Shown: positions 1,144 to 59,309 of the stretch, piece by piece
How the letters are laid out: the number at the start of each line of letters is the position of its first letter
Numbering within the stretch: the stretch's first letter is position 1
NCBI GenBank assembly: GCA_963813535.1
Contig: CAWEZH010000002.1
Coordinates: 1,312,001 to 1,376,000, forward strand
DNA length: 64,000 nucleotides
Reading direction: 5' to 3'
Source: an uncultured Chloroflexia bacterium
Lineage (GTDB): Bacteria; Chloroflexota; Limnocylindria; Limnocylindrales; CSP1-4
Translations under genes and position numbers: made by a program
The notes under the pieces: model-generated
Database searches by the model: none
The model's input: only the letters and a program-made list of their open reading frames with translations
What the model was told of the DNA's origin: nothing

Positions 1144-1584
1144 ATGACCGAGACGACCGCGACCGCGTCACCGCTCACCCCGGCGATCCGCGAGTTCATC
1201 GCCGAAACGCGCTTCACGAGCATCGCCACGCTCGACCCCGACGGTGCGCCGCGCCAGGCCGTCGTCTGGTATCGACTCGACGGCGAGGAGATCGTGCTGA
1301 ACAGCGCGGTCGGTCGGCGTTGGCCGGCGAATCTCGTCCGTGACGGCCGCATCAGCCTCGCCGTCCTCGACGCAGGCGGTTACAGGTGGGTCGGGCTGAC
1401 CGGCGTGGCGACACCAGTCACCGACCAGCCGACCGCCCAGGCGGACATCGCCGAGATGGCTCGCCGCTACCACGCCGACGATCCTGCCAAGGCCGAGCGG
1501 CTCATCGCGAACCGTTTCCAGCGCCAGGAGCGCATCAGCTTCCGGGTCCGCGTCGATGCGGCCCACGAGCACCTCGAGGACTGA
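1144..1584 (+). CDS. PPOX-class (split beta-barrel) probable F420-dependent oxidoreductase
   Basis: IATLDPDGAPRQAVVWY, NLVRDGRISLAV; 146 aa; lies next to cof genes. Confidence 0.85.
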   Translation: MTETTATASPLTPAIREFIAETRFTSIATLDPDGAPRQAVVWYRLDGEEIVLNSAVGRRWPANLVRDGRISLAVLDAGGYRWVGLTGVATPVTDQPTAQADIAEMARRYHADDPAKAERLIANRFQRQERISFRVRVDAAHEHLED

Positions 1585-1587
1585 CCG

Positions 1588-2529: not shown

Positions 2530-2537
2530 GGGTCTGC

Positions 2538-3812: not shown

Positions 3813-4040
3813 CACATCCCCTCGGGCGCCGACCGGCTTCGAATGTCGAGCACCCCTCATCGACGCTTCGAACGCGGTCGTATTACGGCCGGCGATCAGC
3901 CGGCCGCGGCGGTCAGACATGACAGACTTGATGTCGCATCGCAGTGCCACCCTGGTGAAGGAGGACCCCGTGACCGTTGGCGGCGGAACCGTACGCGCCA
4001 GGTCAAGACGCGTCCACCCTTCCAGGGGGCCATCTGGCAC

Positions 4041-4994: not shown

Positions 4995-5614
4995 CCACGC
5001 CTCGGATCGTCGCCATCGTCCCGGTGGGCTCCATCGAAGGGGCGAAATCGCGGCTCGGCGCGGTCCTCGACGCGGAGGAACGCCACGACCTCGCCCTGCG
5101 CCTCGCCGAAACGACGATCCGCGCCGCGGTCGCGACACCAGGCATCGATGAGACGTTGGTGATCACCCCGGACGATGAGGTGCGCGAGCTCGGCTTGCGG
5201 GCGGGCGCCCGGCCGATGCGCCAGAGCAGCCGAGGACTCAACGACGGCCTGCGCGAGGCGCGGGATGAGGCCATCGCGGGTGGCGCCAGTGCGGTCCTCG
5301 TGCTGCCGATCGACATCCCACGGATATCGGCAGCGTCGCTTGGTCCGCTTGTCGATCTCGCCAGAGGCGCGACGAGTCCACTCGTCGCGATCGTTCCCGA
5401 CCGTCACGGCCGCGGTACGAACGCGTTGGTACTCAGGCCGCCGGACGTGATCGACTTCTGCTTCGGCGGCGACAGCTGGCAGGCACACCTCGAGGCAGCT
5501 CGCGAGGCCGATGCGACGATCGAAACCCTCGACGGGCCCCTGACACTCGACATCGACACGCCCGAGGACCTGCTGCTCGCGCAGGCCGAGATGCCCGAGA
5601 CGGTCGGTGGCTGA
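4991..5614 (+). CDS. cofC: Phospholactate/PEP guanylyltransferase (CofC/FbiD)
   Basis: IVPVGSIEGAKSRL, GLNDGL, PDRHGRGTNAL, FGGDS, LDIDTPEDL; ATGA-coupled to cofD. Confidence 0.93.
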   Translation: MTTPRIVAIVPVGSIEGAKSRLGAVLDAEERHDLALRLAETTIRAAVATPGIDETLVITPDDEVRELGLRAGARPMRQSSRGLNDGLREARDEAIAGGASAVLVLPIDIPRISAASLGPLVDLARGATSPLVAIVPDRHGRGTNALVLRPPDVIDFCFGGDSWQAHLEAAREADATIETLDGPLTLDIDTPEDLLLAQAEMPETVGG

Positions 5615-6374
5615 CCGCATCGAGGCCGTCGCCATCGAGGGTCTCGGAGAGATCGTCCCCGGGGACGACCTGCCGGCCCTCATCGCCAGCGCAGTCGCGG
5701 GCGCAACGAGCGTCCTGCCGCTGCGTGACGACGATGTCCTGGTCGTCACCCAGAAGGTCGTGTCGAAGGCCGAGGGCGCCGTGGTCGACCTGACCACGAT
5801 CGAGCCGCGAGCCGAGGCGGTCGAGTACGCCCAGCGGTTCGACCGTGACCCACGCCAGGTCGAGCTCGTGCTTCGCGAAGCGAAGCGGGTCGTGCGCATG
5901 GACAACGGTCTGGTCATCACCGAGACCCACCATGGGTTCGTCTGCGCGAACGGCGGTATCGATGCGTCGAACGTCGGGCCACGTACCGGGGACATCGTCA
6001 CGCTGCTGCCGCGCGACCCGGACGCCTCCGCCGACGCGATCCGGGCGGCGATCCGAGACCGCATCGGGCATGACCTGCCGGTGATCGTGTCGGACAGCTT
6101 CGGGCGGCCCTGGCGGTTCGGCATCGTCGATGTCGCGATCGGCGTGTCGGGCCTGCTGCCGCTCGACGATCTCCGTGGCACCCCCGACGCCGACGGCCGC
6201 GTGATGAAGTCGACGGTCCGCGCCGTCGCCGACCAGATCGCCTCGGCCGCGGAGCTCGCACTCGGCAAGACGGCCCGCCGGCCGCTGGCCCTGGTCCGCG
6301 GCGCCACGTTCCGCCGCGGCGAGGGCCGCATCGCGGATATGGTCATGCCCGCGGAGATGGACCTCTTCCGCTAA
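5607..6374 (+). CDS. cofE: Coenzyme F420-0:gamma-glutamyl ligase (single-domain CofE)
   Basis: GEIVPGDDL, VVTQKVVSKAEG, HGFVCANGGIDASN, LLPRDPDASA, DSFGRPWR, ends DLFR. Confidence 0.95.
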   Translation: MADRIEAVAIEGLGEIVPGDDLPALIASAVAGATSVLPLRDDDVLVVTQKVVSKAEGAVVDLTTIEPRAEAVEYAQRFDRDPRQVELVLREAKRVVRMDNGLVITETHHGFVCANGGIDASNVGPRTGDIVTLLPRDPDASADAIRAAIRDRIGHDLPVIVSDSFGRPWRFGIVDVAIGVSGLLPLDDLRGTPDADGRVMKSTVRAVADQIASAAELALGKTARRPLALVRGATFRRGEGRIADMVMPAEMDLFR

Positions 6375-6384
6375 CCTCCGGCCG

Positions 6385-7284
6385 ATGAAGGTCGGGCTCC
6401 AGATCTGCTCGTTCACGTGGCCCGGTGGGTCCGAGGCGATCGCACCGACCCTCGCCCGGATCGTCCGGGACGCCGACGAGATGGGCTTCGACTCGATCTG
6501 GGTCATGGACCACTTCTTCCAGATCCGTGGCGTCGGCCGGATCGAGGAACCCATGCTCGAGGGCATGACGACTCTTGGCTTCATGGCCGCCCATTCCATA
6601 CGCGCCCGGCTGGGGCTCATGGTCGGTGGCATCCACTACCGCAACCCGGGGCTGTGGGTCAAGGCGACGACGACGCTCGACGTCCTCTCGGGCGGCCGCG
6701 CCTGGCTGGGCATCGGCGCGGCCTGGAACCAGGAGGAATCGCGCGCGCTCGGCTTCCCGTTCCCACCGCTCGGCGAGCGGTTCGAGATGCTCGAGGAGAC
6801 ACTCCGGATCGCCCACGGGATGTTCGAGGGCGAGCGCGGGTCGGAGGGGAGCTTCCAGGGTCGTCACTTCCGCGCCGAGCGGCTCATGAACTCCCCGCAG
6901 TCGATCTCCCGACCCCGCATCCCGATCATGGTCGGCGGCGGGGGTGAGAAGAAGACGCTTCGGCTCGTCGCCCAGTACGCCGACGCGTGCAATGTCTTCG
7001 GTTCGCCGGAGGGCATCGCGCGGAAGTTCGCGATCCTCGACGAGCACTGTGCGGCCGTCGGGCGCGACCCGCGCGAGATCGAGCGGTCGACCCTCCAGAA
7101 CGTCCGTCTCGGGCCACCGAGCTCCACCCGCACCGAGTCGCCCCAACAGATCGTCGACCGCTTCGGCGAGCTATGGGACGCCGGCGCAGAGCACATCATC
7201 TTCGAGCTGAAGGACGCCAGCGAGCCCGAGTACATGGAGGGGCTCGGCAGGGACGTTCTGCCCGCGCTCCACGCCATCGGTTGA
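6385..7284 (+). CDS. LLM-class F420-dependent oxidoreductase
   Basis: GFDSIWVMDHFFQI, TTLDVLSGGRAWLGIGAAW, IMVGGGGEKKTLRLVAQYADACN. Confidence 0.93.
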   Translation: MKVGLQICSFTWPGGSEAIAPTLARIVRDADEMGFDSIWVMDHFFQIRGVGRIEEPMLEGMTTLGFMAAHSIRARLGLMVGGIHYRNPGLWVKATTTLDVLSGGRAWLGIGAAWNQEESRALGFPFPPLGERFEMLEETLRIAHGMFEGERGSEGSFQGRHFRAERLMNSPQSISRPRIPIMVGGGGEKKTLRLVAQYADACNVFGSPEGIARKFAILDEHCAAVGRDPREIERSTLQNVRLGPPSSTRTESPQQIVDRFGELWDAGAEHIIFELKDASEPEYMEGLGRDVLPALHAIG

Positions 7285-15235: not shown

Positions 15236-15777
15236 ACGGCAGGACGTCCGGCCAGGATCTCAAGCGGCTCCGCCAGCGCGCCATCCGCCAGGTGATCGCG
15301 TCGCGCCCGATCGGCAGCCAGCGTGAGCTGGTCGATGCACTGACCGCACAGGGCTTCGATGTCACGCAGGCCACCGTCAGTCGCGACATCACGGAACTGG
15401 GTCTGCTCAAGGCGCCCCGGACCGACGGGGCCGTGTACGTGTCGCCCGAGGACGTCGCTTCGCGCGCGCCGGCGACGCTGCCGACCGCCGGCGTCACCGG
15501 CGCGACTAGAGACGACCGCCTCGGCCGCATCCTCTCCGATGTCCCCGTCACGGTCGGCCGGAGCGGCTTGATCCTCGTCCTGACCGGCACACCCGGAACG
15601 GCGAGCGTCGTCGCGCAGGCCATCGACGAGTCCTCCCTGCAGGAGCAGGAGGGCACGCTGGCGGGCGACAATACGCTCCTGGTCCTGTTCGCCGACGAAG
15701 TCCGCCTCGAGCGCTGGCTCGCGCGCTTCGAGGCCATCCAACGGTCGATCGCGGAGGAGGTTCCCGCACCGGTATGA
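15232..15777 (+). CDS. argR: Arginine repressor
   Basis: SQRELVDAL, VTQATVSRDI, PGTA, GTLAGDNT; ATGA overlap with argB. Confidence 0.93.
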   Translation: MNGRTSGQDLKRLRQRAIRQVIASRPIGSQRELVDALTAQGFDVTQATVSRDITELGLLKAPRTDGAVYVSPEDVASRAPATLPTAGVTGATRDDRLGRILSDVPVTVGRSGLILVLTGTPGTASVVAQAIDESSLQEQEGTLAGDNTLLVLFADEVRLERWLARFEAIQRSIAEEVPAPV

Positions 15778-17058
15778 AGAAGGTCGTTCTCGCCTATTCC
15801 GGCGGTCTGGACACGTCCGTCGCCGTCTCCTGGCTCAAGGAGCAGTACGACGCCGAGGTCGTGACGTTGACGGTCGATCTCGGCGGCGGGTCGCTGCGCG
15901 AAGGCGTCGAGCGGCGCGCCATGTCCGCCGGTGCCTCGCGTGCCTACGTGATCGATGCGCGAGAGCGCTTCATCACCGACTACGTCTGGCCGCACCTCCA
16001 GGCCAATGCGCTGTACCAGGGCGCCTACCCGCTGGCGACGGCGCTCGCCAGGCCCCTCATCGCCCAACTGCTCGTGGAGGTCGCCCGACGCGAGAGCGCC
16101 GACGCCGTCGCCCACGGTTGCACCGGCAAGGGCAACGACCAGGTCCGGTTCGACGTCGCGACCCACGCGCTCGATCCGGGGCTCGAGGTCGTCGCTCCGA
16201 TGCGCGTGGGCATGGGCCTGACCCGCGACCAGGAGATCGACTACGCCAACGAACGTGGCATCGAGATCCCGATCACCAAGCAGTCGCCCTACTCGATCGA
16301 CGTGAACCTGTGGGGCCGGTCGTGCGAGACCGGCGTCCTCGAGGACCCCTGGGTCACGCCACCGCCCGACGCCTACGAGTGGACGGTCGAACCGTCCGCA
16401 GCCCCGGATCCGGTCGAGATCGTCATCGACTTCGAGGGGGGCGTGCCCGTGGCGATCGACGGGGAGCGCCTCGGTGCCGGTCGAGCTCGTCCAGCGGCTC
16501 CACGACCTGGGCGGCACGCACGGCGTCGGCCGGATCGATCACGTCGAGGATCGGCTGGTCGGGATCAAGAGCCGGGAGATCTATGAGACGCCGGCGGCCA
16601 CCATCCTGCACGCTGCCCATCGGGCGCTGGAAGGGCTCACGCTGACCCGCGACACACTCCGGTTCAACCGGCTTGTCGCGGACGAGCTGTCGCGCCTCAT
16701 CTACGACGGGCTGTGGTTCAGCGCCCTGTCGCGTGACCTGCGCGCCTATGTCGCCTCTTCACAGCGGGTCGTGTCGGGCGAGGTCCGGATGCGGCTCGAC
16801 CACGGCCAGGCGGTCGTGGCCGGTCGCAAGTCGCCGCTGTCGCTCTACGACAAGAGCCTGGCGACGTACGACGAGGGCGATGCGTTCGACCACGCGAGTG
16901 CCGTCGGGTTCATCGAGATCTTCGGTCTGCCGCTGCGGGTCGAGGCGGCGCGACACGGTGCCGTGGGAGCACGCTACGGTGCGGCCTGGTCGTGGACCGA
17001 TCCCCTGCTCGAAACATTGCCGACCACGGTCACCGATCCGGAGCCGGCGGCGGTCTGA
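15774..17058 (+). pseudogene. argG: Argininosuccinate synthase, split by a +1 frameshift near 16473-16476 (possibly a sequencing error)
   Basis: VVLAYSGGLDTS and HGCTGKGNDQVRF in ORF 15774-16586; GVGRIDHVEDRLVGIKSREIYE in ORF 16474-17058. Removing one base restores ...DGERL(G/V)PVELVQ. Confidence 0.9.
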
Positions 17059-50273: not shown

Positions 50274-51227
50274 TCAGACCCCGATCGGGTGCCAGACCGT
50301 CTTCATCTCGAGGAAGACGGCGATCCACTCGGGGCGCTCCGATGCTCGGTCGTCGAGCCAGTCGAACCGCGCATCGCTGACGCGCGCGGGTCGGCGAGAG
50401 ACGCGCTTGATGTCGTCGGCGGCCAGCTGTTCGGTCTCGACCCGCATGTCGTCGGGCACCCCCCAGACGTCGAGCGCGTCGACGTCGACGTGACCGGCGA
50501 GCACCGGGACGAGCTCCTTCTTGCGGCCGGTGAGGATGTTGACGACGCCACCAGGGACGTCGGATGTCGCCAGTACCTCGCTCAGCGTGATGGCCGGCAG
50601 CGGACGCGTTTCCGAGGCGAGCAGCACGACCGTGTTACCTGAGACGAGCGGCGGAGCGAGCCGGCTGACCAACCCGAGCAGCGACGACGTTTCGGGCGCG
50701 ACCACGCCGACGATCCCCGTCGGCTCCGGGATCGTGAAGTTGAAGTAGGGAGCGGCAACGGGGTTGGCCGATCCCAGGATCTGGGTGATCTTGTCGGCCC
50801 AGCCGGCGTACCAGACCCAGCGATCGATGGCCCGGTCGACGATCTCGCCCGCGCGCGCGTCGCGCAACCCTTCGGCGCTGGCCACCTCGGCGACGAACTG
50901 GTCGCGCCGGCCCTCCATCAGCTCGGCGACGCGGTACAGGACCTGGCCCCGGTTCATCGCCGTCTTGGCGGCCCAGCCCGAGACCGCACCATGCGCGGCG
51001 CGGACCGCATCGCGCACGTCCTTGCGCGACGCCCGGACCGCGTTGGCCAGCGGAGTGCCGTCACTGGCCGACACGAGGTACGAACGCCCACTCTCGCTGC
51101 GCGGGAACGCCCCGCCGATGTACAGCTTGTACGTCTTGCGGACGCCGATCCGGGGCACCGCCCCGTCGCGCGACGTCCCGTTGCGCGACGACCCGTTCCG
51201 CGATGCAGCCCCTCGGCCCGTGGCCAT
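50274..51227 (-). CDS. Truncated aldehyde-dehydrogenase-family protein (Rossmann-like part only)
   Basis: VRKTYKLYIGGAFPRSESGR, WYAGWADK, EPTGIVG, ends KTVWHPIG; no ELGGK or catalytic Cys segment. Confidence 0.88.
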   Translation of the reverse strand: MATGRGAASRNGSSRNGTSRDGAVPRIGVRKTYKLYIGGAFPRSESGRSYLVSASDGTPLANAVRASRKDVRDAVRAAHGAVSGWAAKTAMNRGQVLYRVAELMEGRRDQFVAEVASAEGLRDARAGEIVDRAIDRWVWYAGWADKITQILGSANPVAAPYFNFTIPEPTGIVGVVAPETSSLLGLVSRLAPPLVSGNTVVLLASETRPLPAITLSEVLATSDVPGGVVNILTGRKKELVPVLAGHVDVDALDVWGVPDDMRVETEQLAADDIKRVSRRPARVSDARFDWLDDRASERPEWIAVFLEMKTVWHPIGV

Positions 51228-52750
51228 CAGCGGTGCTCGAGACGGACGTAGGCGTGCAGCCCATGCATACCGCCCTCGCGGCCGAACCCGGACTCCTTGT
51301 AGCCCCCGAATGGCGAGGTCGGGTCGAACTTGTTGAACGTATTAGCCCACACCACGCCGGCCTGCAGCCGCGACACCATCTCGAGGATCCGCGAGCCCTT
51401 GTCGGTCCAGACGCCGGCCGACAGCCCATAGCGGGTGTTGTTCGCTTTCTCGACCGCCTCATCAGGCGTCCGGAAGGTCAGGACCGACAGCACCGGCCCG
51501 AAGATCTCCTCGCGGGCGATCCGGTGGCTCTGGGCGACGTTCGTGAAGAGCGTGGGGCGGAAGAAGTAGCCGCGCTCTGGCAGGTCGCACGCGGGCTGGT
51601 AGAGATCGGCGCCCTCGGCAACGCCAGAGGCGACGAGCTCCGTGATCTTCTCGAGCTGCGCCTTGGAGTTGATCGCGCCGACGTCCGTGTTCTTGTCGAG
51701 CGGGTCACCGACACGGATCGTGGAGAGGCGGTCCTTGAGCTTGTCGACGAGCGTATCGGCGATCGACTCCTGCACCAGCAGCCGCGACCCCGCGCAGCAC
51801 ACCTCACCCTGGTTGAAGTAGATCCCGTTGACGATGCCCTCGATGGCCTGGTCCAGCGGGGCGTCGTCGAACACGATGTTGGCGGCCTTGCCGCCGAGCT
51901 CGAGCGTCAGGGCCTTGTCCGAACCCGCCACCCCGCGGCCGATCTTCTTGCCGATCTCAGTCGAGCCGGTGAAGGCGACCTTGTCGACATCGGGGTGGGT
52001 CGCGAGGTGCATCCCGATCTCGCCCGGGCCGGTGACGATGTTGACGGTGCCCGGTGGCAGGTCGGCCTGCCGGACGACCTCGGCGAACAGCATCGCGGAG
52101 AGCGGCGTGGTCGACGCGGGCTTGAGCACGACCGTGTTCCCGGCTGCCAGCGCGGGGGCGATCTTCCACGCCAGCATCAGCAGCGGGAAGTTCCACGGGA
52201 TGATCTGGGCCGCCACACCTAGGGGCTTGGCGACCCGGCCAGGGAAGGCGTAGTCGAGCTTGTCGGCCCAGCCGGCGTAGTACCAAAAGTGGTTGGCAGC
52301 AAGCGGGACGTCGACGTCCCGGCTCTCCTTGATCGGCTTGCCGGAGTCCATCGACTCGAGGACGGCGAACTCGCGAGCGCGTTCCTGGAGGATCCGCGAG
52401 ATCCGGAAGAGGTACTTCGCACGCTCCCGGCCGGACAGCTGGCCCCATGACCGGCGCTGGGCACGCCGTGCGGCCCGCACCGCCTTGTCGACGTCCCCGG
52501 CGGTTGCCTTGGCGACCTTGGCGAGCGGTAGCTCCGTTGACGGGTCGATCGAGACGAACGTGCCGCCGCCGGTGGCGGCCACGGACCGCCCGTTGATGAA
52601 CAGCCCGTACTGCTCCTGGAGCGTGACGATGTCACGCGCCTCGGGCGCCGGGGCGTACTCCCACGGGATCGCCTGACCGTCCCCGAAACCCCAGCTGTTC
52701 GGCCGCTGGTCCGAGGTGACGACGACACTCGTGCTGGTGCGGTCCGCCAT
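51227..52750 (-). CDS. Aldehyde dehydrogenase
   Basis: IIPWNFP, FTGST, LELGGK, NQGEVCCAG, EEIFGPV, FGGYKESG. Start 52750 fits -10 CATAAT. Confidence 0.95.
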   Translation of the reverse strand: MADRTSTSVVVTSDQRPNSWGFGDGQAIPWEYAPAPEARDIVTLQEQYGLFINGRSVAATGGGTFVSIDPSTELPLAKVAKATAGDVDKAVRAARRAQRRSWGQLSGRERAKYLFRISRILQERAREFAVLESMDSGKPIKESRDVDVPLAANHFWYYAGWADKLDYAFPGRVAKPLGVAAQIIPWNFPLLMLAWKIAPALAAGNTVVLKPASTTPLSAMLFAEVVRQADLPPGTVNIVTGPGEIGMHLATHPDVDKVAFTGSTEIGKKIGRGVAGSDKALTLELGGKAANIVFDDAPLDQAIEGIVNGIYFNQGEVCCAGSRLLVQESIADTLVDKLKDRLSTIRVGDPLDKNTDVGAINSKAQLEKITELVASGVAEGADLYQPACDLPERGYFFRPTLFTNVAQSHRIAREEIFGPVLSVLTFRTPDEAVEKANNTRYGLSAGVWTDKGSRILEMVSRLQAGVVWANTFNKFDPTSPFGGYKESGFGREGGMHGLHAYVRLEHR

Positions 52751-52789
52751 GGTCGGCATTATGTCACCGCCTTCGTGCGGGGCTCCTTC

Positions 52790-53752: not shown

Positions 53753-53865
53753 GGCGGAGAGGCTACAGGCATCGGCCGATCCGCTGCATCACACGATGGG
53801 ACTAGGCGAGCCGACGTCTGCCTCCTTCCGGAAACGATGCCCTCGCAGCGTCGTAGGCTGCGCGC

Positions 53866-54579
53866 ATGGACCGACTGGCGGGGGTCGAGGAGCTGCTCGA
53901 CGGTCCGCTCCACGATCGCGCTGCGCTGGTCGGCAACCTGCGCGATCTCGCGCGGGTGAATCGACGACTCGGCGGCGTCGACCTCAGCGCCCGCGCGATC
54001 GATGCGCTGGCGCCCGGCACGGCCGAGCTCCGGATCCTCGACGTGGGCACCGGCGGCGCCGACATCCCGCTCGGGCTGATCGATCGTGGCCGGGCGACCG
54101 GTCGGCTGGTGCGGGTCACCGGCGTCGACAGCCGACCCGAGGTGCTGGCAGCCGCCGCGCTCGCCGATCCGCGGGTCACGGCGACCGGGGAGCTGGCGCT
54201 GCACGTAGCCGACGGCCGGTCCCTGCCATTCGCCGACGGTTCGTTCGAAGTCGTCCATGCCTCGCTCGTCGTCCACCATCTCGAGCCCGACACGGCACGG
54301 TCGTTGCTTGCCGAGATGGGCCGGGTCGCCCGCTTGGGCGTGGTCCTCAATGACCTCGTCCGCAGCCGACCGGCGTGGCTCGGCGCCTGGTTGCTGAGCC
54401 ATCTCGCGACGCGGAACCGCCTGACGCGCTACGACGCCCCCATGTCGGTCCGGCGGGCGTACTCGGTCGCGGAACTGACGGCGCTGATGGCTGCGGCCGG
54501 TCTTCGCGTCGAGCGACGCTACGACGGGTTCATGGGGCATCGGATCGCGCTCGCCGCGCGACACGACGGCGTGCGGTGA
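53866..54579 (+). CDS. SAM-dependent methyltransferase of the type found beside type III PKS genes
   Basis: EELLD...LRDLARVNRRLGG, ILDVGTGGADI, SLVVHHL, NDLVR, DAPMSVRRAY. Confidence 0.85.
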   Translation: MDRLAGVEELLDGPLHDRAALVGNLRDLARVNRRLGGVDLSARAIDALAPGTAELRILDVGTGGADIPLGLIDRGRATGRLVRVTGVDSRPEVLAAAALADPRVTATGELALHVADGRSLPFADGSFEVVHASLVVHHLEPDTARSLLAEMGRVARLGVVLNDLVRSRPAWLGAWLLSHLATRNRLTRYDAPMSVRRAYSVAELTALMAAAGLRVERRYDGFMGHRIALAARHDGVR

Positions 54580-55799
54580 GCAGCGGCAGGACCGTGGACG
54601 TCGCGATCGTCGGTGCCGGGCCGGCCGGGACCGCGCTGGCGGCGGCGCTCGCGAGGCGAGGTCTGGACGTCGTGGTGTTGGAGCGTGCGGCGGCGTGGCA
54701 GTGGCGGGCCGGTGGCGTCTTCACGTCACCCGCGGCCGTCGCCGCGCTCACCCGGGTCGGGCTGGGGTCCGCCGTCATCGGTGACGTCACCACGCCGATC
54801 GCGGCGATGCGGCTCGAGACACCGGGTGGTTCGACCGTGCGGCTGACGTACGGGGCGGATCAGGGCGGGCCACCGGCGGTCGGGTTCGACCGCTCGCGGC
54901 TCGATCCTGCTCTGGAGCAGCTCGCGCGCGACGCCGGTGCGACCGTCCGCCGCGGCGTGAACGTCCGGGCGGTGACCCTCGGCGGACCCGGGCCAGCCAT
55001 CCTGGACCTCGGGGGTGAACACGTCGCCACCCGCATGGTGGTCGGCGCCGACGGCACCCACTCGATCGTCGCGCGAGACGCGGCCGTCGCACGACCGCCT
55101 CGACTGCCGCCGCGCGTCGGACTGACCTGGCATGTCGTCGATCCACGTCCCGAGCCGGCAACGCCGATCGATGCCCGGCTGGTCGTCGTTCGCGATGCGT
55201 ATGTCGGGCTTGCGCCGGTGCCCGGCGCGCGCCTGAACATCGGTATCGTGCTCGGGCGTTCCTGGCACACATCGCTCGCCCGCGACGGAGCGGCAACGAC
55301 CGTCCGCCGCGTCCTCGATCTCGTCCCGATCGCTGGCGACGACCCGGTCGCCTGGGCGGACGCGACGCCGTGCGATCGGATCGCCGGCGCCTCACCTCTG
55401 GGCGTGCGCGTGACGCGGCGTGCCGGCAACGGGTGGTTCCTGGTAGGTGACGCCGCCGGCTTCCTCGACCCGTTCACCGGCGAGGGTCTCCATCGCGCAC
55501 TGGTCTCGACGGAGCTCGCGGCTCGCGCCATCCCAGCGGCACTCAGCGGGGGCTCGGGAGCCCGGGAACGTGCGGCCGCCGCGTATGACCGCTCGATGCG
55601 TCGGCGTTTCGGCTCGAAGGATGCGGTCTCCTTCCTGGTCCAGTCGTTCCTGGCCCGGCCGGGGCTGTTCGAGTACGCCGCGCGACGGCTCGCCGAACGG
55701 CCCGGCGTCCGTGCGACGATGGGCCTCGTGATGGGTGACCTGGTTCCCGCGTCGCGTGCGCTGGATCCCCGCTTCCTCGCGGCGCTACTGGCGCCGTGA
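54576..55799 (+). CDS. FAD-dependent oxidoreductase (geranylgeranyl-reductase/monooxygenase-like)
   Basis: VAIVGAGPAG, RSRLD, VGADG, LVGDAAGFLDPFTGEG; GTGA overlap. Confidence 0.88.
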   Translation: MSSGRTVDVAIVGAGPAGTALAAALARRGLDVVVLERAAAWQWRAGGVFTSPAAVAALTRVGLGSAVIGDVTTPIAAMRLETPGGSTVRLTYGADQGGPPAVGFDRSRLDPALEQLARDAGATVRRGVNVRAVTLGGPGPAILDLGGEHVATRMVVGADGTHSIVARDAAVARPPRLPPRVGLTWHVVDPRPEPATPIDARLVVVRDAYVGLAPVPGARLNIGIVLGRSWHTSLARDGAATTVRRVLDLVPIAGDDPVAWADATPCDRIAGASPLGVRVTRRAGNGWFLVGDAAGFLDPFTGEGLHRALVSTELAARAIPAALSGGSGARERAAAAYDRSMRRRFGSKDAVSFLVQSFLARPGLFEYAARRLAERPGVRATMGLVMGDLVPASRALDPRFLAALLAP

Positions 55800-55815
55800 C
55801 CACGGGCGTGAGCCG

Positions 55816-56247
55816 GTGAGCGAGGATCGCGTCCGCGTCGCGGCGTACGCGATCGTTCGTGATGAGCAGGACCGGGTGCTGTTGTGCCACATCCACCCGT
55901 CGGTCGGGGTCGGCGACGTCTGGACGCTGCCCGGTGGCGGGCTCGAATTCGGCGAGTCGCCGGCGCGGGCCGTCGTCCGCGAGATGCAGGAGGAGACGGG
56001 GTTCCTCGGCGAGATCGAGCGGCTCGTGGAGGTCGACGACCGACTGTTCAGCAACGGCGACGACGGCGACCGGATGCACGCGATCCGGATCGTCTACGAC
56101 GTGCGGATCGTCGGTGGCGCTCTGCGCGACGAGGCCGACGGCTCGACCGACACGTGCCGCTGGGTCGCCCCCGAGGAGGCGCTCCAGATGCGTCTCGGCG
56201 AGCTGGCGCGACATGCCGTCGAGCGGCTCGCCGCCGTCGATGCATAG
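55816..56247 (+). CDS. Nudix hydrolase
   Basis: Nudix box WTLPGGGLEFGESPARAVVREMQEETG. Confidence 0.88.
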   Translation: MSEDRVRVAAYAIVRDEQDRVLLCHIHPSVGVGDVWTLPGGGLEFGESPARAVVREMQEETGFLGEIERLVEVDDRLFSNGDDGDRMHAIRIVYDVRIVGGALRDEADGSTDTCRWVAPEEALQMRLGELARHAVERLAAVDA

Positions 56248-56743
56248 CCAGATCGCGATCGACATCGACGCGCCCGCGGCGCTGGTGTTCGCCCTCGCGC
56301 GAGACGTGGAGCGGTGGGCGACGCTCCTCCCTCACTACGTTCGTTCCGGCGTCCTCGGCCGCGATCCCAGTGGGCGTCAGCTCGTCGAGTTCGTCGCTCG
56401 CCGCCCGTTCGTCCCGGTGCTCGGACTCGGTCTCCCGGTCGTCTGGCGATCGCGGACATGGAACGAGCCCGACGCACGACGCCTTCGTTTCGAGCACGTC
56501 GCCGGGGCGACCCGCGGCATGGACGTGACGTGGGACATCGTTCCGCGCCCCGATGGCATGGGCTGTCGCGTCACCATCAGCCACGAGTTCGCCCCTCCGG
56601 TGCCCGGCTTCGCCACGTTCGTGGACCGATTCTTCACGCGCGCGATCGCCGGCCGCACCCTCGGCACGTTCAAGGCACTGGCCGAGACGCTGGACCGCGC
56701 CGATAGGTCCGATCCCGCACCGCCGCCGAATCCCTCGACATGA
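56240..56743 (+). CDS. SRPBCC polyketide cyclase/aromatase-like protein
   Basis: IDIDAPAALVFALARDVERWATLLPHY, LRFEHVAGATRGMDVTW, IAGRTLGTFK. Confidence 0.8.
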   Translation: MHSQIAIDIDAPAALVFALARDVERWATLLPHYVRSGVLGRDPSGRQLVEFVARRPFVPVLGLGLPVVWRSRTWNEPDARRLRFEHVAGATRGMDVTWDIVPRPDGMGCRVTISHEFAPPVPGFATFVDRFFTRAIAGRTLGTFKALAETLDRADRSDPAPPPNPST

Positions 56744-58002
56744 GCGAGCGACGACGGATCTGGATCACCGGCCTCGGGATCGTCACGCCCATCGGGACGG
56801 GCGTCGAGGCGTTCCGAGCCGGCCTCCGTCGTGCCGAGTCACCGGTCAAGCGCATCGACCGCTTCGATCCGTCGCCCTTCCGCAGCCAGGTGGCGGCCCA
56901 GGTCGACGACTTCGACCCGTTGTCGTGGATGCCACCCAAGACGGCCCGCCAACTCGATCGGTTCAGCCAGTTCGGGATGGTCGCCGGCCGCCTGGCTCTC
57001 GACGATGCGGGGATGCGACCCGGCGAGGCCGGTGCCCCGGACCCGGAACGCGTCGGGATCTACCTCGGGTCGGCGCTCGGCGGCATCGCGTTCGCGGAGG
57101 AGCAGCACGAACGGTTCATGGAGAAGGGCATCCGCCAGGTCGCCCCGACGCTCGCCCTTGCCGTCTTCGGCGGCGCCGCGCCGGCCAACCTCGGGATCGA
57201 GCTCGACGTCCGCGGCCCCATCCTCTCGACCGCCAATTCCTGCGCATCGGGTGGTGTCGCCCTGGGTGAGGCGATGGGCGACCTGCGCGAGGGACGGGTC
57301 GATGCGGCGATCGCCGGCGGCTGCGAGATCCCTCTGTCGCCGCTCGCGTTCGGAGCGTTCGACATCATCCGGGCCCTCTCCGCGGGACACAACGACGACC
57401 CAAGCCACGCCGCACGACCCTTCGACAGCGAGCGCGATGGATTCGTCATGGGTGAGGGCGCGACCCTGCTCGTGCTCGAGGAGGCCGGGGCGGCCGCCCG
57501 GCGGGGCGCGACTCCGTATGCCGAGCTGCTCGGCTACGGCGCGACGTCCGACGCGCACCACATGGTCCAGCCGCGCGCCGACGGTCGCGAGGCGGCGCGA
57601 GCGACGACCATCGCGCTCGACGATGCCGCGGTCGACGCAGGCGAGATCGAGTACGTCAACGCGCACGCGTCGTCGACGCCGATCGGCGACATCGCCGAGG
57701 CGCGCGCCATCACGATCGCCCTCGGCGAGCGCGCCGCGACGGTGCCGGTCAGCGGGACCAAGGCCCTCTATGGGCATCCCCTCGGTGCGTCGGGTGCCAT
57801 CGAGGCGGCCATCTGTGCGCTGGCCATCCACGACGGGTGGGCGCCGGCGTCGGTCAACCTCGAGTCGCCCGAGCCGGAGCTCGACGGGCTGCTGCCAGGC
57901 CTCCTGCGCGAGGGCCGCGACGGGACCTACCGGCGGGTGCTGAGCACCTCGTTCGGGTTCGGCGGGCTGAACGCCGCGTTGGTGTTCGGCGCCGTCGACT
58001 GA
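56740..58002 (+). CDS. Beta-ketoacyl synthase (FabF / KS-alpha-like)
   Basis: ITGLGIVTPIG, TANSCASG (catalytic Cys), DGFVMGEG, NAHASST, GHPLGASG, SFGFGGLN. Confidence 0.92.
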   Translation: MSERRRIWITGLGIVTPIGTGVEAFRAGLRRAESPVKRIDRFDPSPFRSQVAAQVDDFDPLSWMPPKTARQLDRFSQFGMVAGRLALDDAGMRPGEAGAPDPERVGIYLGSALGGIAFAEEQHERFMEKGIRQVAPTLALAVFGGAAPANLGIELDVRGPILSTANSCASGGVALGEAMGDLREGRVDAAIAGGCEIPLSPLAFGAFDIIRALSAGHNDDPSHAARPFDSERDGFVMGEGATLLVLEEAGAAARRGATPYAELLGYGATSDAHHMVQPRADGREAARATTIALDDAAVDAGEIEYVNAHASSTPIGDIAEARAITIALGERAATVPVSGTKALYGHPLGASGAIEAAICALAIHDGWAPASVNLESPEPELDGLLPGLLREGRDGTYRRVLSTSFGFGGLNAALVFGAVD

Positions 58003-59309
58003 AGCACGGCCTCTGCCGGGACCGTCTCGGCCGCGCGTGCCGTGACCGCCAGGTCGCGGGCGCCGATCCGTCGATACCAGACGAGCGCCCCGACCCCGCA
58101 TACGAGCGAGAGGACGCCACCGATGGCGACGGCCTGGAGGATCCCGATCGTCGACGCGACCGCGCCCATGAGGAGGCCGCCGATCGGCATCGACGCCGAG
58201 AAGACCGTGGTGTAGACGCTCATCACTCGCCCGCGCAGCCCATCGGGCACGGCCAGCTGGATCGTGGCGTTGGCGGTGGCGGCCATGATGATGCCGCCGG
58301 CCCCGATCGGAACCATCAGCAGCAGCGACAGCGGGAACGACGTCGAGGCCGCCAGGGCGACCGTCGCGATGCCGAGCGCGACCGCGCCGAGGGCGATGCG
58401 GATCGGGCGAGGTCGACCGGCGATCACCAGCACGACCGCCGATACCAGCGCACCGATACCTGACGCGGTCATCAGGAAGCCGTAGCCCGAGGCGTCGCTA
58501 CCGAGCACGTCCTGAGCGAGCGGCGGGATGAGCACCTGGAAGTTCATGCCGAACGTGGCGACCAGCCCCACCGTCGTCACGGCCATCAATACGATGGGCG
58601 TGTGGCGGACGAAGGCGAGGCCCTCGCGCAGGGTCTCGACGACAGCACCGACCGACCGCGGTCGGGGCACCAGACGCGGCAGGTGCAACTCGTCGTCGCG
58701 CATGGCCGCCAAGGCGATGATCACCGCGAGGAAGCTGACGGCGTTGATCGCGAATGCCGGGGCGATCCCGAATGCGGCGATCGTCAGCCCAGCCATGGCC
58801 GGCCCGACGACGCGGGCACCGTTGAACATCGCCGAGTTGATGGCCACCGCGTTGCCGATATCACGGGGACCGACCATCTCGATCGCGAACGACTGGCGGA
58901 CGGGCATGTCGACGGCGCTCGCGCACCCCAGGAGCAGGGCCAGCACGACGATCATCCAGACCTCGACCAACCCGGTCGCGGTGAGGATCGTCAGGATGAT
59001 GGCGAGCACCATCATCACGACCTGGGCGGCCAGCAAGGTCTGGCGCTTGGGCAGCACGTCCGCGAGGATGCCGGCGAAGAGGCCAAGGACCATGACCGGC
59101 AGGAACTGCGCGGTGGCAACCACGCCGAGCCAGAAGGGGTCGCCGGTGAGCGTCAACACCAGCCAACCCTGGGCGACCTGCTGCATCCAGGTGCCGATGA
59201 GCGACACCGCTTGGCCGAAGAAGAACAGCCGGTAGTTGCGGTGGCCGAAGGCCTTGCCGGCCTTGCTCCGAGCGAGCCGTCGTGGGGCGAGGACAGACAC
59301 ACCGGTCAT
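57927..59309 (-). CDS. MFS transporter
   Basis: NYRLFFFGQAVSLIGTWMQ, MPVRQSF, FNGARVVGPA, LRGRVMS. Confidence 0.92.
   Translation of the reverse strand: MTGVSVLAPRRLARSKAGKAFGHRNYRLFFFGQAVSLIGTWMQQVAQGWLVLTLTGDPFWLGVVATAQFLPVMVLGLFAGILADVLPKRQTLLAAQVVMMVLAIILTILTATGLVEVWMIVVLALLLGCASAVDMPVRQSFAIEMVGPRDIGNAVAINSAMFNGARVVGPAMAGLTIAAFGIAPAFAINAVSFLAVIIALAAMRDDELHLPRLVPRPRSVGAVVETLREGLAFVRHTPIVLMAVTTVGLVATFGMNFQVLIPPLAQDVLGSDASGYGFLMTASGIGALVSAVVLVIAGRPRPIRIALGAVALGIATVALAASTSFPLSLLLMVPIGAGGIIMAATANATIQLAVPDGLRGRVMSVYTTVFSASMPIGGLLMGAVASTIGILQAVAIGGVLSLVCGVGALVWYRRIGARDLAVTARAAETVPAEAVLQSTAPNTNAAFSPPNPNEVLSTRR

What the first reader, a model, noticed from the sequence alone, without database searches (positions are those of the whole stretch)
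53866..58002. Five-gene operon: methyltransferase, FAD enzyme, Nudix, SRPBCC cyclase and a lone ketosynthase, with no ACP or CLF
Seen in sequence: five co-oriented genes tightly joined (GTGA overlap, 16-bp gap, 8-bp overlap, ATGA overlap) behind one leaderless-type promoter (TAGGCT, 6 nt before ATG). The KS keeps a Cys-His-His triad (ANSC, NAH, GHP). There is no second KS/chain-length factor, ACP, FabD or FabG nearby, so it is not a normal fab locus. Established: TcmN-like SRPBCC proteins cyclise/aromatise polyketides in type II PKS, and this methyltransferase type plus FAD oxidoreductase is, from my recall, usually paired with a type III PKS. Inference: a FabF-fold KS plus START cyclase replaces the type III PKS, giving a minimal pathway to a methylated, oxidised aromatic lipid (alkylresorcinol/quinone-like) using housekeeping ACP or CoA esters. 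This is the best candidate for an undescribed system here.
Basis: partly seen in the sequence, partly recalled or inferred. Interest (0 to 1): 0.8.

Follow-up and report, generated by a model that had tools for sequence, protein, structure and literature searches.

The report
Ketosynthase-cyclase pair replacing type III PKS
A soil and freshwater class of Chloroflexota carries a conserved operon whose methyltransferase and flavoenzyme normally accompany a type III polyketide synthase, but here that synthase's place is taken by a small cyclase-like protein and a divergent fatty-acid-type ketosynthase, which suggests an undescribed route to a phenolic lipid.

Summary
Five co-oriented genes lie at 53866-58002 with the stated overlaps and no ACP, CLF, FabD/G/H or type III PKS in the window.

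- **Conservation:** 70 of 70 related Limnocylindria-type loci with enough flanking DNA keep MT-FAD-SRPBCC-KS. Nudix is optional (46 of 70). SRPBCC and KS are translationally coupled.
- **MT and FAD:** they belong to the HidA/HidB-like pair. 8 of 8 annotated full-length plasmid homologues of the MT sit beside a type III PKS and an FAD enzyme.
- **SRPBCC:** its nearest relatives by sequence profile and by predicted fold are the type II PKS aromatase/cyclases (WhiE-ORFVI, ZhuI, TcmN).
- **KS:** it keeps the Cys-His-His triad but scores below NCBI's FabF cut-off, like a Streptomyces KS-alpha-like enzyme. It falls in a separate well-supported clade from E. coli, Priestia and fabD-linked Thermomicrobium FabF.

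Best reading (about 0.5): KS plus cyclase replace the type III PKS and yield a methylated, hydroxylated phenolic lipid built on housekeeping ACP.

Two things remain untested: whether these genomes hold a second, canonical FabF, and what the product is. I found no published description. I rate it a new variant of a known kind.

The parts
53854..53859 (+). -10-like hexamer TAGGCT, 6 nt upstream of the MT start codon. It is the likely promoter of a leaderless or near-leaderless operon transcript.
   Evidence: Read. A TAnnnT hexamer starts 10-13 nt upstream of the MT start in 29 of 71 related loci (script count). It starts within 16 nt in 49 of 71 (my count from the printed list). Function as a promoter is inferred.
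53866..54579 (+). Class I SAM-dependent methyltransferase of the PRK06202 / HidA-like kind (237 aa).
   Evidence: Pfam Methyltransf_25/11. Its top NCBIfam hit is NF004851 PRK06202, 129.2 bits, below the 243 cut-off; the next family scores 42 bits. It is 25-33% identical to MTs of type III PKS operons, which all have PRK06202 as their top family.
54576..55799 (+). FAD-dependent oxidoreductase of the geranylgeranyl-reductase / aromatic-hydroxylase superfamily, HidB-like (407 aa).
   Evidence: Pfam FAD_binding_3, 75.8 bits. NCBIfam GG-red-SF, 115.7 bits, below the 158.8 cut-off. The same top family and almost the same score (116.2) is found for the Paludisphaera FAD enzyme next to a type III PKS. 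It is 29-32% identical to five such enzymes. Its best PDB hits are flavin halogenases, CmlS at E 1.4e-16.
55816..56247 (+). Nudix hydrolase (143 aa). It is an accessory, not a core member.
   Evidence: Pfam NUDIX, 74.6 bits. Present in 46 of 70 complete related loci: 40 adjacent to SRPBCC, 4 separated by an insertion, 2 after the KS, 24 absent.
56240..56743 (+). SRPBCC/START-fold protein of the aromatase/cyclase kind (167 aa).
   Evidence: Pfam Polyketide_cyc2 and Polyketide_cyc. In a family profile search of PDB, 9 of the 12 matches at E<=1 are type II PKS ARO/CYCs; the best are WhiE-ORFVI 2kf2/3tl1 at E 2.7e-6. The AlphaFold2 model has pLDDT 87.9. The Foldseek top hits are ZhuI, WhiE-ORFVI, TcmN and BexL, with TM 0.67-0.75.
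56740..58002 (+). Divergent FabF-derived ketosynthase with an intact Cys168-His309-His346 triad (420 aa).
   Evidence: Pfam ketoacyl-synt plus Ketoacyl-synt_C. TIGR03150 fabF scores 435.7 bits against a cut-off of 493.75. It sits in a distinct starred clade in three quick trees. An exact 4-nt overlap with the SRPBCC stop is found in 47 of the 56 loci where the start could be placed.

Best explanation
This is one conserved biosynthetic operon of Limnocylindria-type Chloroflexota. A HidA/HidB-like tailoring pair (SAM methyltransferase and FAD oxidoreductase) is joined to a translationally coupled pair: an aromatase/cyclase-like SRPBCC protein and a divergent FabF-derived ketosynthase. That pair occupies the place which a type III polyketide synthase holds in related operons of other phyla.

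Proposed mechanism, all steps inferred:
1. The KS is acylated by a fatty acyl thioester from primary metabolism.
2. The KS extends it several times with malonyl-ACP from the housekeeping FabD/ACP, without reduction.
3. The SRPBCC protein holds the poly-beta-keto chain and directs aldol cyclisation and aromatisation to a resorcinol-type ring.
4. The methyltransferase methylates the ring.
5. The flavoenzyme hydroxylates it.

The product would be a methoxylated alkyl-phenol or quinol lipid of the hierridin or alkylbenzoquinone kind. Nudix is an optional accessory of unknown role.

Shown here: the gene anatomy, the family assignments, the conservation, and the MT/FAD link to type III PKS operons. 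Inferred: the substrates, iterative non-reducing elongation, the cyclase activity, use of housekeeping ACP, and the product.
For: 1. **Anatomy.** There are overlapping or near-abutting junctions behind a single -10-like box.

2. **Conservation.**
- 73 of 73 loci with at least 2600 nt upstream have MT and FAD.
- 75 of 75 with at least 1400 nt downstream have the KS.
- 70 of 70 with room on both sides have all four core genes.
- The immediate flanks vary: M74 peptidase, pfkB kinase or Kelch protein upstream; MFS-MerR, S9 peptidase or an HTH protein downstream.
- SRPBCC to KS: 47 of 56 placeable junctions are the exact 4-nt overlap.

3. **MT/FAD module.**
- 41 plasmid records match the MT. I inspected 10.
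- All 8 with at least 78% coverage and annotation have a type III PKS and an FAD enzyme as neighbours. They are Paludisphaera, Sphingobium, Deinococcus, Falsirhodobacter, Roseomonas, Paracoccus, Psychrobacter and Novosphingobium.
- The window MT and FAD are as similar to these (25-33% and 29-32%) as these are to one another (26-35% and 26-31%).
- They share the top NCBIfam families.
- The methyltransferase-oxidoreductase-type III PKS gene order, and the HidA/HidB/HidC roles, are described in PMC10896814 and PMC6836626 (passages read).

4. **SRPBCC.**
- Its nearest solved relatives by sequence profile and by fold are type II PKS ARO/CYCs.
- I mapped it through the WhiE alignment onto the TcmN residues listed in a preprint. 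Of the 7 pocket residues called highly conserved among ARO/CYCs, 5 are identical (W26, W69, S71, M94, W98) and F32 is a conserved Leu.

5. **KS.**
- It scores 435.7 on TIGR03150, below the 493.75 cut-off.
- A Streptomyces KS-alpha-like enzyme scores 423.0. fabD-linked Thermomicrobium FabF scores 608.3, E. coli FabF 650.9 and Priestia FabF 594.3.
- It lies in a 16-19-row clade with SH-aLRT 99-100. This is separate from a 15-16-row clade (95-98) holding the E. coli, Priestia and Thermomicrobium FabFs.
- An AU test rejects grouping it with the Thermomicrobium FabF (p 7e-5).

6. **Independent link.** A distant protein, P0237, fuses a sub-cut-off FabF-like KS (41% identical to ours) to a C-terminal SRPBCC domain. 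That domain matches this SRPBCC family by hhalign (probability 80.5%, E 1.3e-5).
Against: - No product, expression or biochemical data exist.
- I could not examine whole genomes. A second, canonical FabF in these organisms is not shown, and the KS could be their elongating FAS enzyme.
- The KS is conserved like neighbouring primary-metabolism enzymes. Its median identity to the window is 84%, against 87% for AldDH and 91% for DeoC. SRPBCC, MT and FAD are at 62-66%.
- All 80 loci are from one class and share wider synteny (AldDH upstream, DeoC downstream), so conservation partly reflects vertical descent.
- By sequence, the KS is closer to true FabFs than to act KS-alpha in PDB (334 against 284 bits).
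- Of the five TcmN residues reported essential (R69, Y35, R82, W108, Q110), only Y35 is kept. The others map to T73 (with R72 adjacent), H86, V111 and I113.
- In 4 of 70 loci, ATP-grasp genes are inserted between the MT-FAD side and the SRPBCC-KS side.
- Three rows that score as FabF equivalogs (P0132, P0151, P0167) fall outside the starred FabF clade.
- The trees are 'quick' trees. The careful search never finished.
- The group tested by the AU test was named after I had seen the tree.
Confidence: 0.5

Rival explanations
1. The KS is, or doubles as, the fatty-acid-elongating condensing enzyme of these bacteria and merely rides at the end of the operon. MT, FAD enzyme and SRPBCC then act on some other lipid. 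One example would be tailoring and chaperoning an isoprenoid quinone, with the SRPBCC as a COQ10/RatA-like lipid binder.
For: - The KS has housekeeping-level conservation: median 84%, against 62-66% for its operon partners and 87-91% for flanking primary enzymes.
- It has an intact triad and gating GFGG motif.
- Its best PDB matches are true FabFs.
- It passes the broader NCBIfam 'beta-ketoacyl-ACP synthase II' subfamily cut-off, 429.6 against 387.
- No ACP is encoded nearby.
- JGI labels many SRPBCC relatives 'RatA'.
- The MT and FAD enzyme have weak UbiE/MenG, MenJ and UbiH-type hits.
- A canonical FabF in the same genomes was not demonstrated.
Against: - The KS scores below the FabF equivalog cut-off, on a par with a KS-alpha-like enzyme.
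- It lies in a separate starred clade from E. coli, Priestia and fabD-linked Thermomicrobium FabF, and the AU test rejects union with the latter.
- It is only 41% identical to the Thermomicrobium FabF, which is itself 49% identical to E. coli FabF.
- The clade has its own motifs around the active-site Cys and Lys.
- The exact 4-nt coupling to the SRPBCC is conserved.
- An independent KS-SRPBCC fusion exists.
- No COQ10-type structure appears among the profile's PDB hits at E<=1, whereas 9 of 12 are ARO/CYCs.
- In type III PKS operons too, the synthase is the most conserved member: 39-40% against 26-35%.
Confidence: 0.2
2. KS and SRPBCC do work together, but not as a resorcinol synthase. One possibility is that the KS performs one or two condensations and the SRPBCC acts as a dehydratase, thioester-release factor or hydrophobic carrier. 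The product would then be a beta-keto acid, pyrone, ketone or head-to-head condensed lipid, which the GG-reductase-family flavoenzyme reduces and the MT methylates.
For: - Four of the five TcmN catalytic residues are not retained, and the deep-pocket positions are aliphatic (V111, I113).
- The flavoenzyme's top NCBIfam family is the geranylgeranyl reductase subfamily.
- A FabF-type homodimer has no chain-length factor to programme a poly-beta-keto chain (none nearby).
- The START fold serves many lipid-binding roles; one search also lists ABA receptors, thebaine synthase and uncharacterised START proteins at similar scores.
Against: - The MT/FAD pair's homologues accompany ring-forming type III PKSs in 8 of 8 inspected cases.
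- HidA was shown to methylate an alkylresorcinol (PMC6836626, passage).
- The SRPBCC's top profile and fold hits are specifically ARO/CYCs, and 5 of the 7 conserved ARO/CYC pocket residues are identical.
Confidence: 0.2
3. There is no functional unit. The genes are neighbours through inherited synteny in one class and have unrelated functions.
For: All 80 loci are from one lineage. Synteny extends beyond the five genes, to AldDH, MFS-MerR and DeoC. Nudix comes and goes, and insertions split the block in 4 of 70 loci.
Against: - The four-gene block is kept in 70 of 70 loci while its immediate flanks change.
- Start/stop overlaps are conserved.
- A conserved -10-like box sits directly before the first gene.
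- MT and FAD are a known functional pair elsewhere.
- A KS-SRPBCC fusion exists in an unrelated organism.
Confidence: 0.05

Closest known systems
hidABC / srs-type alkylresorcinol operons (methyltransferase, FAD oxidoreductase, type III PKS), as in Cyanobium hierridin biosynthesis and the Planctomycetota three-gene operon
   Same: - The MT comes first and the FAD enzyme second, with the carbon-skeleton-forming genes last.
- The MT shares the PRK06202 family and the FAD enzyme shares the GG-reductase-subfamily profile.
- Pairwise identities are as high as among bona fide members.
- The operons are compact, with overlapping genes.
   Different: - There is no type III PKS in the window or in any of the 80 related loci.
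- An SRPBCC protein and a FabF-type KS stand in its place.
- An optional Nudix gene is present.
- The MT scores below the PRK06202 cut-off (129 against 243 bits).
Minimal type II PKS with a TcmN/WhiE/ZhuI-type aromatase/cyclase
   Same: - A thiolase-fold KS with a Cys-His-His triad sits beside a monodomain SRPBCC ARO/CYC-like protein.
- The KS is as far from FabF as a Streptomyces KS-alpha-like enzyme is: 435.7 and 423.0 bits on TIGR03150.
- The SRPBCC's best sequence and fold matches are ARO/CYCs.
   Different: - There is no chain-length factor and no dedicated ACP.
- The KS does not group with the KS-alpha-like reference in a supported clade.
- Only Y35 of the five essential TcmN residues is kept.
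- The system is found in uncultured Chloroflexota, not actinomycetes.
Housekeeping FabF (beta-ketoacyl-ACP synthase II)
   Same: The fold, length, catalytic triad, Lys341 and C-terminal GFGG motif match. The best PDB hit is Thermus FabF 1j3n at 334 bits.
   Different: - It is below the equivalog cut-off.
- It falls in a separate clade.
- It has N-S-C-A-S-G and T-K-A-L-Y-G-H-P motifs where FabFs have (S/T)-A-C and T-K-S-M-x-G-H.
- It is not linked to acpP/fabD/fabG, unlike E. coli and Thermomicrobium fabF.
DarAB-type dialkylresorcinol synthesis (ketosynthase DarB plus aromatase DarA, with ACP)
   Same: A condensing enzyme plus a separate aromatising protein makes a resorcinol lipid from fatty-acid-derived thioesters (PMC6836626, passage).
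   Different: The paper describes DarB as a phylogenetically distinct class of ketosynthase that has lost elongation ability. That it is FabH-like is my recollection, not a tool result. Here the KS is FabF-type (PF00109/PF02801). I did not compare any DarA or DarB sequence.

Membership tests
Housekeeping FabF (NCBIfam TIGR03150 equivalog) | Score at or above the curated equivalog cut-off (493.75 bits) | tested here: not met
   The window KS scores 435.7 bits. Of 52 representatives scanned, 37 were above the cut-off (497.5-647.7) and 15 below, including all nearest relatives of this KS. Thermomicrobium FabF scores 608.3, E. coli 650.9 and Priestia 594.3.
Housekeeping FabF (NCBIfam TIGR03150 equivalog) | Cys-His-His triad, catalytic Lys and GFGG gate | tested here: met
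   C168, H309, H346, K341 and F407-G408-G409 are invariant in 30 aligned sequences.
Housekeeping FabF (NCBIfam TIGR03150 equivalog) | Groups with known FabFs in a tree | tested here: not met
   The KS sits in separate starred clades in the quick trees. The AU test rejects union with fabD-linked Thermomicrobium FabF, p 7e-5. The careful tree did not finish.
Housekeeping FabF (NCBIfam TIGR03150 equivalog) | Linked to acpP/fabD/fabG, or the only elongating KS of the genome | not testable with these tools
   No fab genes occur in the 64-kb window or in the 80 loci.
Type II PKS minimal system (KS-alpha, chain-length factor, ACP) | Adjacent KS-beta/CLF partner | tested here: not met
   Only one KS-like gene occurs per locus in the window and the 80 loci.
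Type II PKS minimal system (KS-alpha, chain-length factor, ACP) | Dedicated ACP in the cluster | tested here: not met
   There is no PP-binding Pfam hit among the window ORFs. Three ACP queries gave no tblastn hit. ORFs under 80 aa were not scanned with Pfam.
TcmN/WhiE/ZhuI-type aromatase/cyclase | SRPBCC helix-grip fold, with ARO/CYCs as the nearest relatives | tested here: met
   Profile against PDB: 9 of 12 hits are ARO/CYCs, the best at E 2.7e-6. The Foldseek top hits are 3tfz, 3tl1, 2rer and 4xrw, TM 0.67-0.75. Other START proteins score only a little lower.
TcmN/WhiE/ZhuI-type aromatase/cyclase | Conserved pocket residues W28, F32, W65, S67, R69, M91, W95 (list from preprint 10.64898/2026.02.27.708631) | tested here: inconclusive
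   Mapped through the WhiE alignment, these become W26, L30, W69, S71, T73 (with R72 adjacent), M94 and W98. That is 5 identical, 1 conservative, and R69 not aligned. The mapping is by hand from one HMMER alignment.
TcmN/WhiE/ZhuI-type aromatase/cyclase | Residues reported essential for TcmN catalysis (R69, Y35, R82, W108, Q110) | tested here: not met
   Only Y35 is kept, as the invariant Y33. The others map to T73, H86, V111 and I113.
hidABC-type alkylresorcinol operon | HidA-like methyltransferase and HidB-like FAD oxidoreductase as adjacent genes | tested here: met
   Hid proteins themselves were not available. The comparison is with eight plasmid operons of the same composition.
hidABC-type alkylresorcinol operon | Type III PKS (chalcone-synthase-like) in the operon | tested here: not met
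   Three type III PKS queries gave no hit in the window or the 80 loci, and there is no such Pfam domain.
Flavin-dependent halogenase (best PDB matches of the FAD enzyme) | Catalytic Lys near residue 70-80 and a WxWxIP motif (motifs recalled, not from a call) | tested here: not met
   The protein has a single Lys, near the C-terminus, and reads AYVGLAPV where I expect the motif by recall; I made no alignment to a halogenase (sequence). The CmlS match is at E 1.4e-16.

The most novel reading that the evidence does not exclude
A two-protein polyketide synthase with no chain-length factor and no ACP of its own. A FabF-derived KS homodimer is translationally coupled to a monodomain aromatase/cyclase. 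It borrows the fatty-acid ACP and has displaced the type III PKS in a hid-like operon. In this reading a whole abundant soil and freshwater class of Chloroflexota makes a core methoxy-alkylphenol or alkylquinone lipid, possibly a membrane redox carrier, by a route not yet described.
Probability: 0.35. Interest if true: 0.8.

Novelty: new variant of a known kind. Interest (0 to 1): 0.62.

Why it matters
If the reading is right, three things follow.

1. Resorcinol-type phenolic lipids could be made by a third enzymatic logic: a FAS-type KS with a START-fold cyclase. The known routes are type III PKSs and DarAB. This would be a clear case of non-orthologous displacement inside an otherwise conserved operon.

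2. It would be the smallest type II-like PKS known. It would show that a KS without a chain-length factor or its own ACP can be programmed by a cyclase.

3. It would assign a function to a gene set present throughout Limnocylindria (Ellin6529-type bacteria, by my recollection). These organisms are common in soils and lakes, and no lipid chemistry came up for them in my searches.

The idea is directly testable by expressing two or four small genes.

Tried and rejected
- **Complex prediction.** Complex prediction with two KS copies plus SRPBCC residues 1-150, using my own alignments, returned 'no answer' with score 0.00. It counts neither for nor against binding.
- **Cluster look-up.** The origin and names of P0124, P0129 and the others stayed unknown, except for what one search gave.
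- **Careful tree.** The bootstrap tree did not finish in two 300-s runs on one CPU. I used quick trees only.
- **SRPBCC against plasmids.** tblastn found no match.
- **FAD enzyme against plasmids.** tblastn found no match at E<=1e-5, although direct blastp to the plasmid operons' FAD enzymes gives E down to 3e-23. That search was simply insensitive.
- **Longer forms of the SRPBCC.** There are 28 hits, all singletons. They include Nudix-SRPBCC and SRPBCC-KS read-throughs at 40-82% identity. I take them as probable frameshift or gene-calling artefacts of overlapping genes, not as evidence of fusion.
- **KS-Nudix fusion P0167.** It is a bona fide FabF by score, 584.7 bits, so I did not use it as support.
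- **Novosphingobium KS.** This KS lies beside a type III PKS, but it is only 35% identical to ours and sits on a long branch. It is not the same family.
- **Halogenase reading of the FAD enzyme.** Rejected (see the membership test).
- **Shared contigs.** I compared the contig lengths listed for P0124-like proteins with those of the 80 loci, looking for a paralogue on the same contig. None matched.
- **Literature.** Ten searches found no description of this gene combination. The searched library lacks most subscription-journal papers.
- **Not checked.** I opened no supplementary files.

Full report
**Observation**

- MT, 53866-54579.
- FAD enzyme, 54576-55799, GTG start, GTGA overlap.
- Nudix, 55816-56247, after a 16-nt gap.
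- SRPBCC, 56240-56743, 8-nt overlap.
- KS, 56740-58002, ATGA overlap.

TAGGCT lies at 53854-53859, 6 nt before the first possible start codon of the MT gene.

Pfam and NCBIfam give these assignments:
- a class I SAM methyltransferase whose top family is PRK06202;
- an FAD_binding_3 / geranylgeranyl-reductase-subfamily flavoprotein;
- a Nudix hydrolase;
- a Polyketide_cyc/Polyketide_cyc2 SRPBCC protein;
- a two-domain beta-ketoacyl synthase.

The block is bounded by a divergent peptidoglycan-binding peptidase gene upstream. Downstream lies a convergent MFS gene followed by a MerR-family gene on the same strand. Neither Pfam on 47 further window ORFs nor tblastn with ACP, FabD, FabG, FabH, CLF-like and type III PKS queries finds any partner gene in the 64 kb.

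**Who has it**

The SRPBCC protein belongs to a tight family. There are 2158 database proteins at E<=1e-3, and the best 120 are all at least 68% identical. The named ones are Chloroflexota or Candidatus Limnocylindrales.

A scan of one genome per species with a 25-sequence alignment found 177 relatives. The best 80 loci were kept. Nearly all are MAG contigs titled Chloroflexia, Chloroflexota or Limnocylindrales. Five carry other labels.

Local tblastn gave these counts:

| Loci with enough flanking DNA | Genes found |
|---|---|
| 73 with at least 2600 nt upstream | MT and FAD in 73 of 73 |
| 75 with at least 1400 nt downstream | KS in 75 of 75 |
| 70 with room on both sides | all four core genes in 70 of 70 |

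Nudix is present in 46 of 70. It is adjacent in 40, separated by an insertion in 4, moved behind the KS in 2 and absent in 24.

The SRPBCC stop and the KS start form the exact 4-nt overlap in 47 of the 56 loci where the start could be placed, and 54 of 56 lie within -30 to +60 nt. A TAnnnT box stands 10-13 nt before the MT start in 29 of 71 loci and within 16 nt in 49 of 71. Several others show a GAGGA-like motif instead.

Wider synteny is also conserved: aldehyde dehydrogenase upstream and DeoC aldolase downstream. The immediate flanks, however, change between lineages. So the block behaves as a unit, but all this evidence comes from one class.

**The MT-FAD pair**

tblastn of the MT against 72,556 plasmids matched 41 records, 25 of them over at least 80% of the query. 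I inspected 10.
- All 8 with at least 78% coverage and annotation have a type III PKS and an FAD-dependent enzyme as neighbours. They span four phyla.
- The two partial matches were a cyanobacterial plasmid without a PKS and an unannotated record.

The window MT is 25-33% identical to these MTs, and the window FAD enzyme is 29-32% identical to five of their FAD enzymes. The plasmid proteins are no closer to one another.

All three plasmid MTs that I scanned have PRK06202 as their top NCBIfam family. The Paludisphaera FAD enzyme has the same top family and almost the same score as ours.

The literature describes this trio as the hidABC operon of cyanobacteria and a three-gene operon in 58 of 96 planctomycetal type III PKS loci. 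In those systems the PKS makes alkylresorcinols, HidA methylates them and HidB is proposed to hydroxylate them (PMC10896814 and PMC6836626, passages read).

**The SRPBCC protein**

A profile of the family hits 12 PDB sequences at E<=1. Nine of them are type II PKS aromatase/cyclases (WhiE-ORFVI, BexL, TcmN, ZhuI), the best at E 2.7e-6.

The AlphaFold2 model (pLDDT 87.9) finds ZhuI, WhiE-ORFVI, TcmN, BexL and StfQ among its best Foldseek matches. Other START-fold proteins score only slightly lower.

I used the WhiE alignment and the residue lists quoted in a TcmN preprint.
- Five of the seven 'highly conserved ARO/CYC pocket residues' are identical and invariant or nearly so in this family (W26, W69, S71, M94, W98).
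- F32 is Leu.
- R69 aligns with T73, next to the invariant R72.
- Of the five residues reported essential in TcmN, only Y35 is kept. R82, W108 and Q110 map to H86, V111 and I113.

The protein therefore looks like a relative of ARO/CYCs with a differently lined, more aliphatic deep pocket. It cannot be filed as a TcmN-type enzyme.

**The KS**

The KS keeps the Cys-His-His triad, the catalytic Lys and the GFGG motif.

Its best solved relatives are FabFs: Thermus 1j3n at 334 bits, with act KS-alpha at 284 bits.

Scores on the FabF equivalog model TIGR03150 (cut-off 493.75) place it below housekeeping FabFs:

| Protein | Bits |
|---|---|
| Window KS | 435.7 |
| Streptomyces KS-alpha-like enzyme (CLF-like partner and ACP beside it) | 423.0 |
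| Priestia FabF | 594.3 |
| fabD-linked Thermomicrobium roseum FabF | 608.3 |
| E. coli FabF | 650.9 |
| 37 of 52 database representatives | 497.5-647.7 |

An exhaustive search shows one ortholog cluster (80% identity), then P0124 (56%) and P0129 (53%), then the bulk at about 44%.

In three quick maximum-likelihood trees the Limnocylindria KSs form a clade with SH-aLRT 100. That clade sits inside a 16-19-row clade (99-100) together with P0124-like proteins, P0129 and P0138/P0150/P0153. Of the P0124-like proteins that carry an NCBI name, seven are Chloroflexota or Chloroflexi, one is Nitrospinae and one is Entotheonellia.

The E. coli, Priestia and Thermomicrobium FabFs sit in a separate clade with support 95-98. 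An AU test rejects uniting the Limnocylindria KSs with the Thermomicrobium FabF (p 7e-5; I named the group after seeing the tree).

The KS is 41% identical to the Thermomicrobium FabF, which is itself 49% identical to E. coli FabF.

The clade has its own motifs around the active-site Cys and Lys.

Caveats:
- the trees are quick trees;
- three FabF-scoring rows fall outside the FabF clade;
- the genomic context of the non-Limnocylindria clade members is unknown.

**An independent link between KS and SRPBCC**

Among the KS relatives, P0237 (604 aa, low-G+C composition, 41% identical in the KS part, sub-cut-off on TIGR03150) carries a C-terminal Polyketide_cyc domain. That domain aligns to this SRPBCC family by profile comparison: probability 80.5%, E 1.3e-5, with shared GxPxxW and GxxxGxxxTW stretches.

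The 28 longer forms found with the SRPBCC itself are singletons and probably read-through artefacts.

**Interpretation**

A type III PKS combines two chemistries in one active site: iterative decarboxylative condensation, and aldol cyclisation with aromatisation. Here they are represented by two separate, translationally coupled proteins. These stand in the position of the PKS, behind the same tailoring pair.

The product would be a methylated and hydroxylated phenolic lipid built on housekeeping acyl- and malonyl-ACP.

The main rival, at about 0.2, is that the KS is the class's fatty-acid-elongating enzyme. In its favour:
- its conservation (median 84%) matches neighbouring primary enzymes (87-91%) rather than its operon partners (62-66%);
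- I could not test for a second FabF.

Against this reading, the synthase is also the most conserved member of type III PKS operons.

A second rival, also about 0.2, keeps the KS-SRPBCC partnership but doubts the resorcinol product. The reason is the missing TcmN catalytic residues and the GG-reductase affinity of the flavoenzyme.

**Novelty**

Ten full-text searches found no description of a methyltransferase-FAD-SRPBCC-FabF-like KS operon, nor of a KS without a chain-length factor paired with an ARO/CYC. The searched library omits most subscription journals.

I rate the finding a new variant of a known kind: a hid-type phenolic-lipid operon with a different core synthase. It is of real but still hypothetical interest.

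**What stayed open**

- Whole-genome content: whether there is a second FabF, and where acpP lies.
- Gene neighbourhoods outside Limnocylindria.
- A finished bootstrap tree.
- Any physical KS-SRPBCC contact; the one complex job gave no verdict.
- The metagenome and viral contig collections, which were closed.

Noticed in passing
window 57927-58002: The KS gene and the convergent MFS transporter ORF (57927-59309, minus strand) overlap by 76 nt at their 3' ends, leaving no room for a terminator between them. Overlaps of about 60-70 nt recur in many related loci, for example L001, L002 and L004. The MFS C-terminus may simply be an open antisense frame.
   Followed up: partly
window 15774-17058: Argininosuccinate synthase is split into two overlapping ORFs, 15774-16586 and 16474-17058. 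They cover the N-terminal domain plus profile positions 1-63 of the C-terminal domain, and positions 65-217, respectively. This is a frameshift, either real or a sequencing error.
   Followed up: no
window 50274-51227: A 317-aa ORF matches only positions 9-232 of the 461-position aldehyde dehydrogenase profile. It lies directly downstream of a full-length aldehyde dehydrogenase gene at 51227-52759. It is a possible truncated duplicate.
   Followed up: no
window 1144-7284: The window holds a cluster of F420-related genes: CofC-like guanylyltransferase, F420-0:gamma-glutamyl ligase, two luciferase-like monooxygenases and a PNPOx-like protein. The organism probably uses coenzyme F420.
   Followed up: no
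L001 4838-7576; L009, L011, L012 between Nudix and SRPBCC: In 4 of 70 loci, about 2.7-3 kb is inserted inside the operon. It carries ATP-grasp-type genes, one of them on the opposite strand. The insertion separates MT-FAD from SRPBCC-KS. Nudix stays with SRPBCC-KS in L001 and with MT-FAD in the other three.
   Followed up: partly
L093 (Novosphingobium pentaromativorans plasmid pLA3) 1-4666: This type III PKS cluster also encodes a phosphopantetheine-binding protein and a FabF-like KS (35% identical to the window KS, 339.8 bits on TIGR03150). They lie between the PKS and a DUF2147 gene, with the PRK06202-type MT divergent from them. It looks like a dedicated starter-unit supply for the PKS.
   Followed up: partly
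proteins P0141, P0148, P0156, P0159, P0160, P0174, P0176, P0188, P0225, P0228, P0131, P0158, P0165: Thirteen FabF-like representatives (38-44% identical to the window KS) carry N-terminal signalling domains: PocR sensor with or without GGDEF, PilZ, or a response-regulator receiver. Ketosynthases fused to c-di-GMP or two-component modules seem unusual to me. I did not pursue this.
   Followed up: no
window 54576-55799: The best solved relatives of the HidB-like flavoenzyme are flavin-dependent halogenases, CmlS at E 1.4e-16 and CndH. However, the protein has a single Lys, near its C-terminus, and no WxWxIP-type motif (motifs recalled). The cyanobacterial review notes that the hid cluster has no halogenase although hierridin C is chlorinated. 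Whether HidB-like enzymes relate to that puzzle is open.
   Followed up: partly
L003, L004, L021, L030, L038: Five loci with the same operon and flanks carry record titles from other taxa: Schumannella, Patescibacteria group, Isosphaeraceae and Anaerolineaceae. Given 63-74% SRPBCC identity and, in the longer contigs, the same flanking genes, these look like mis-binned or mislabelled contigs rather than gene transfer.
   Followed up: no
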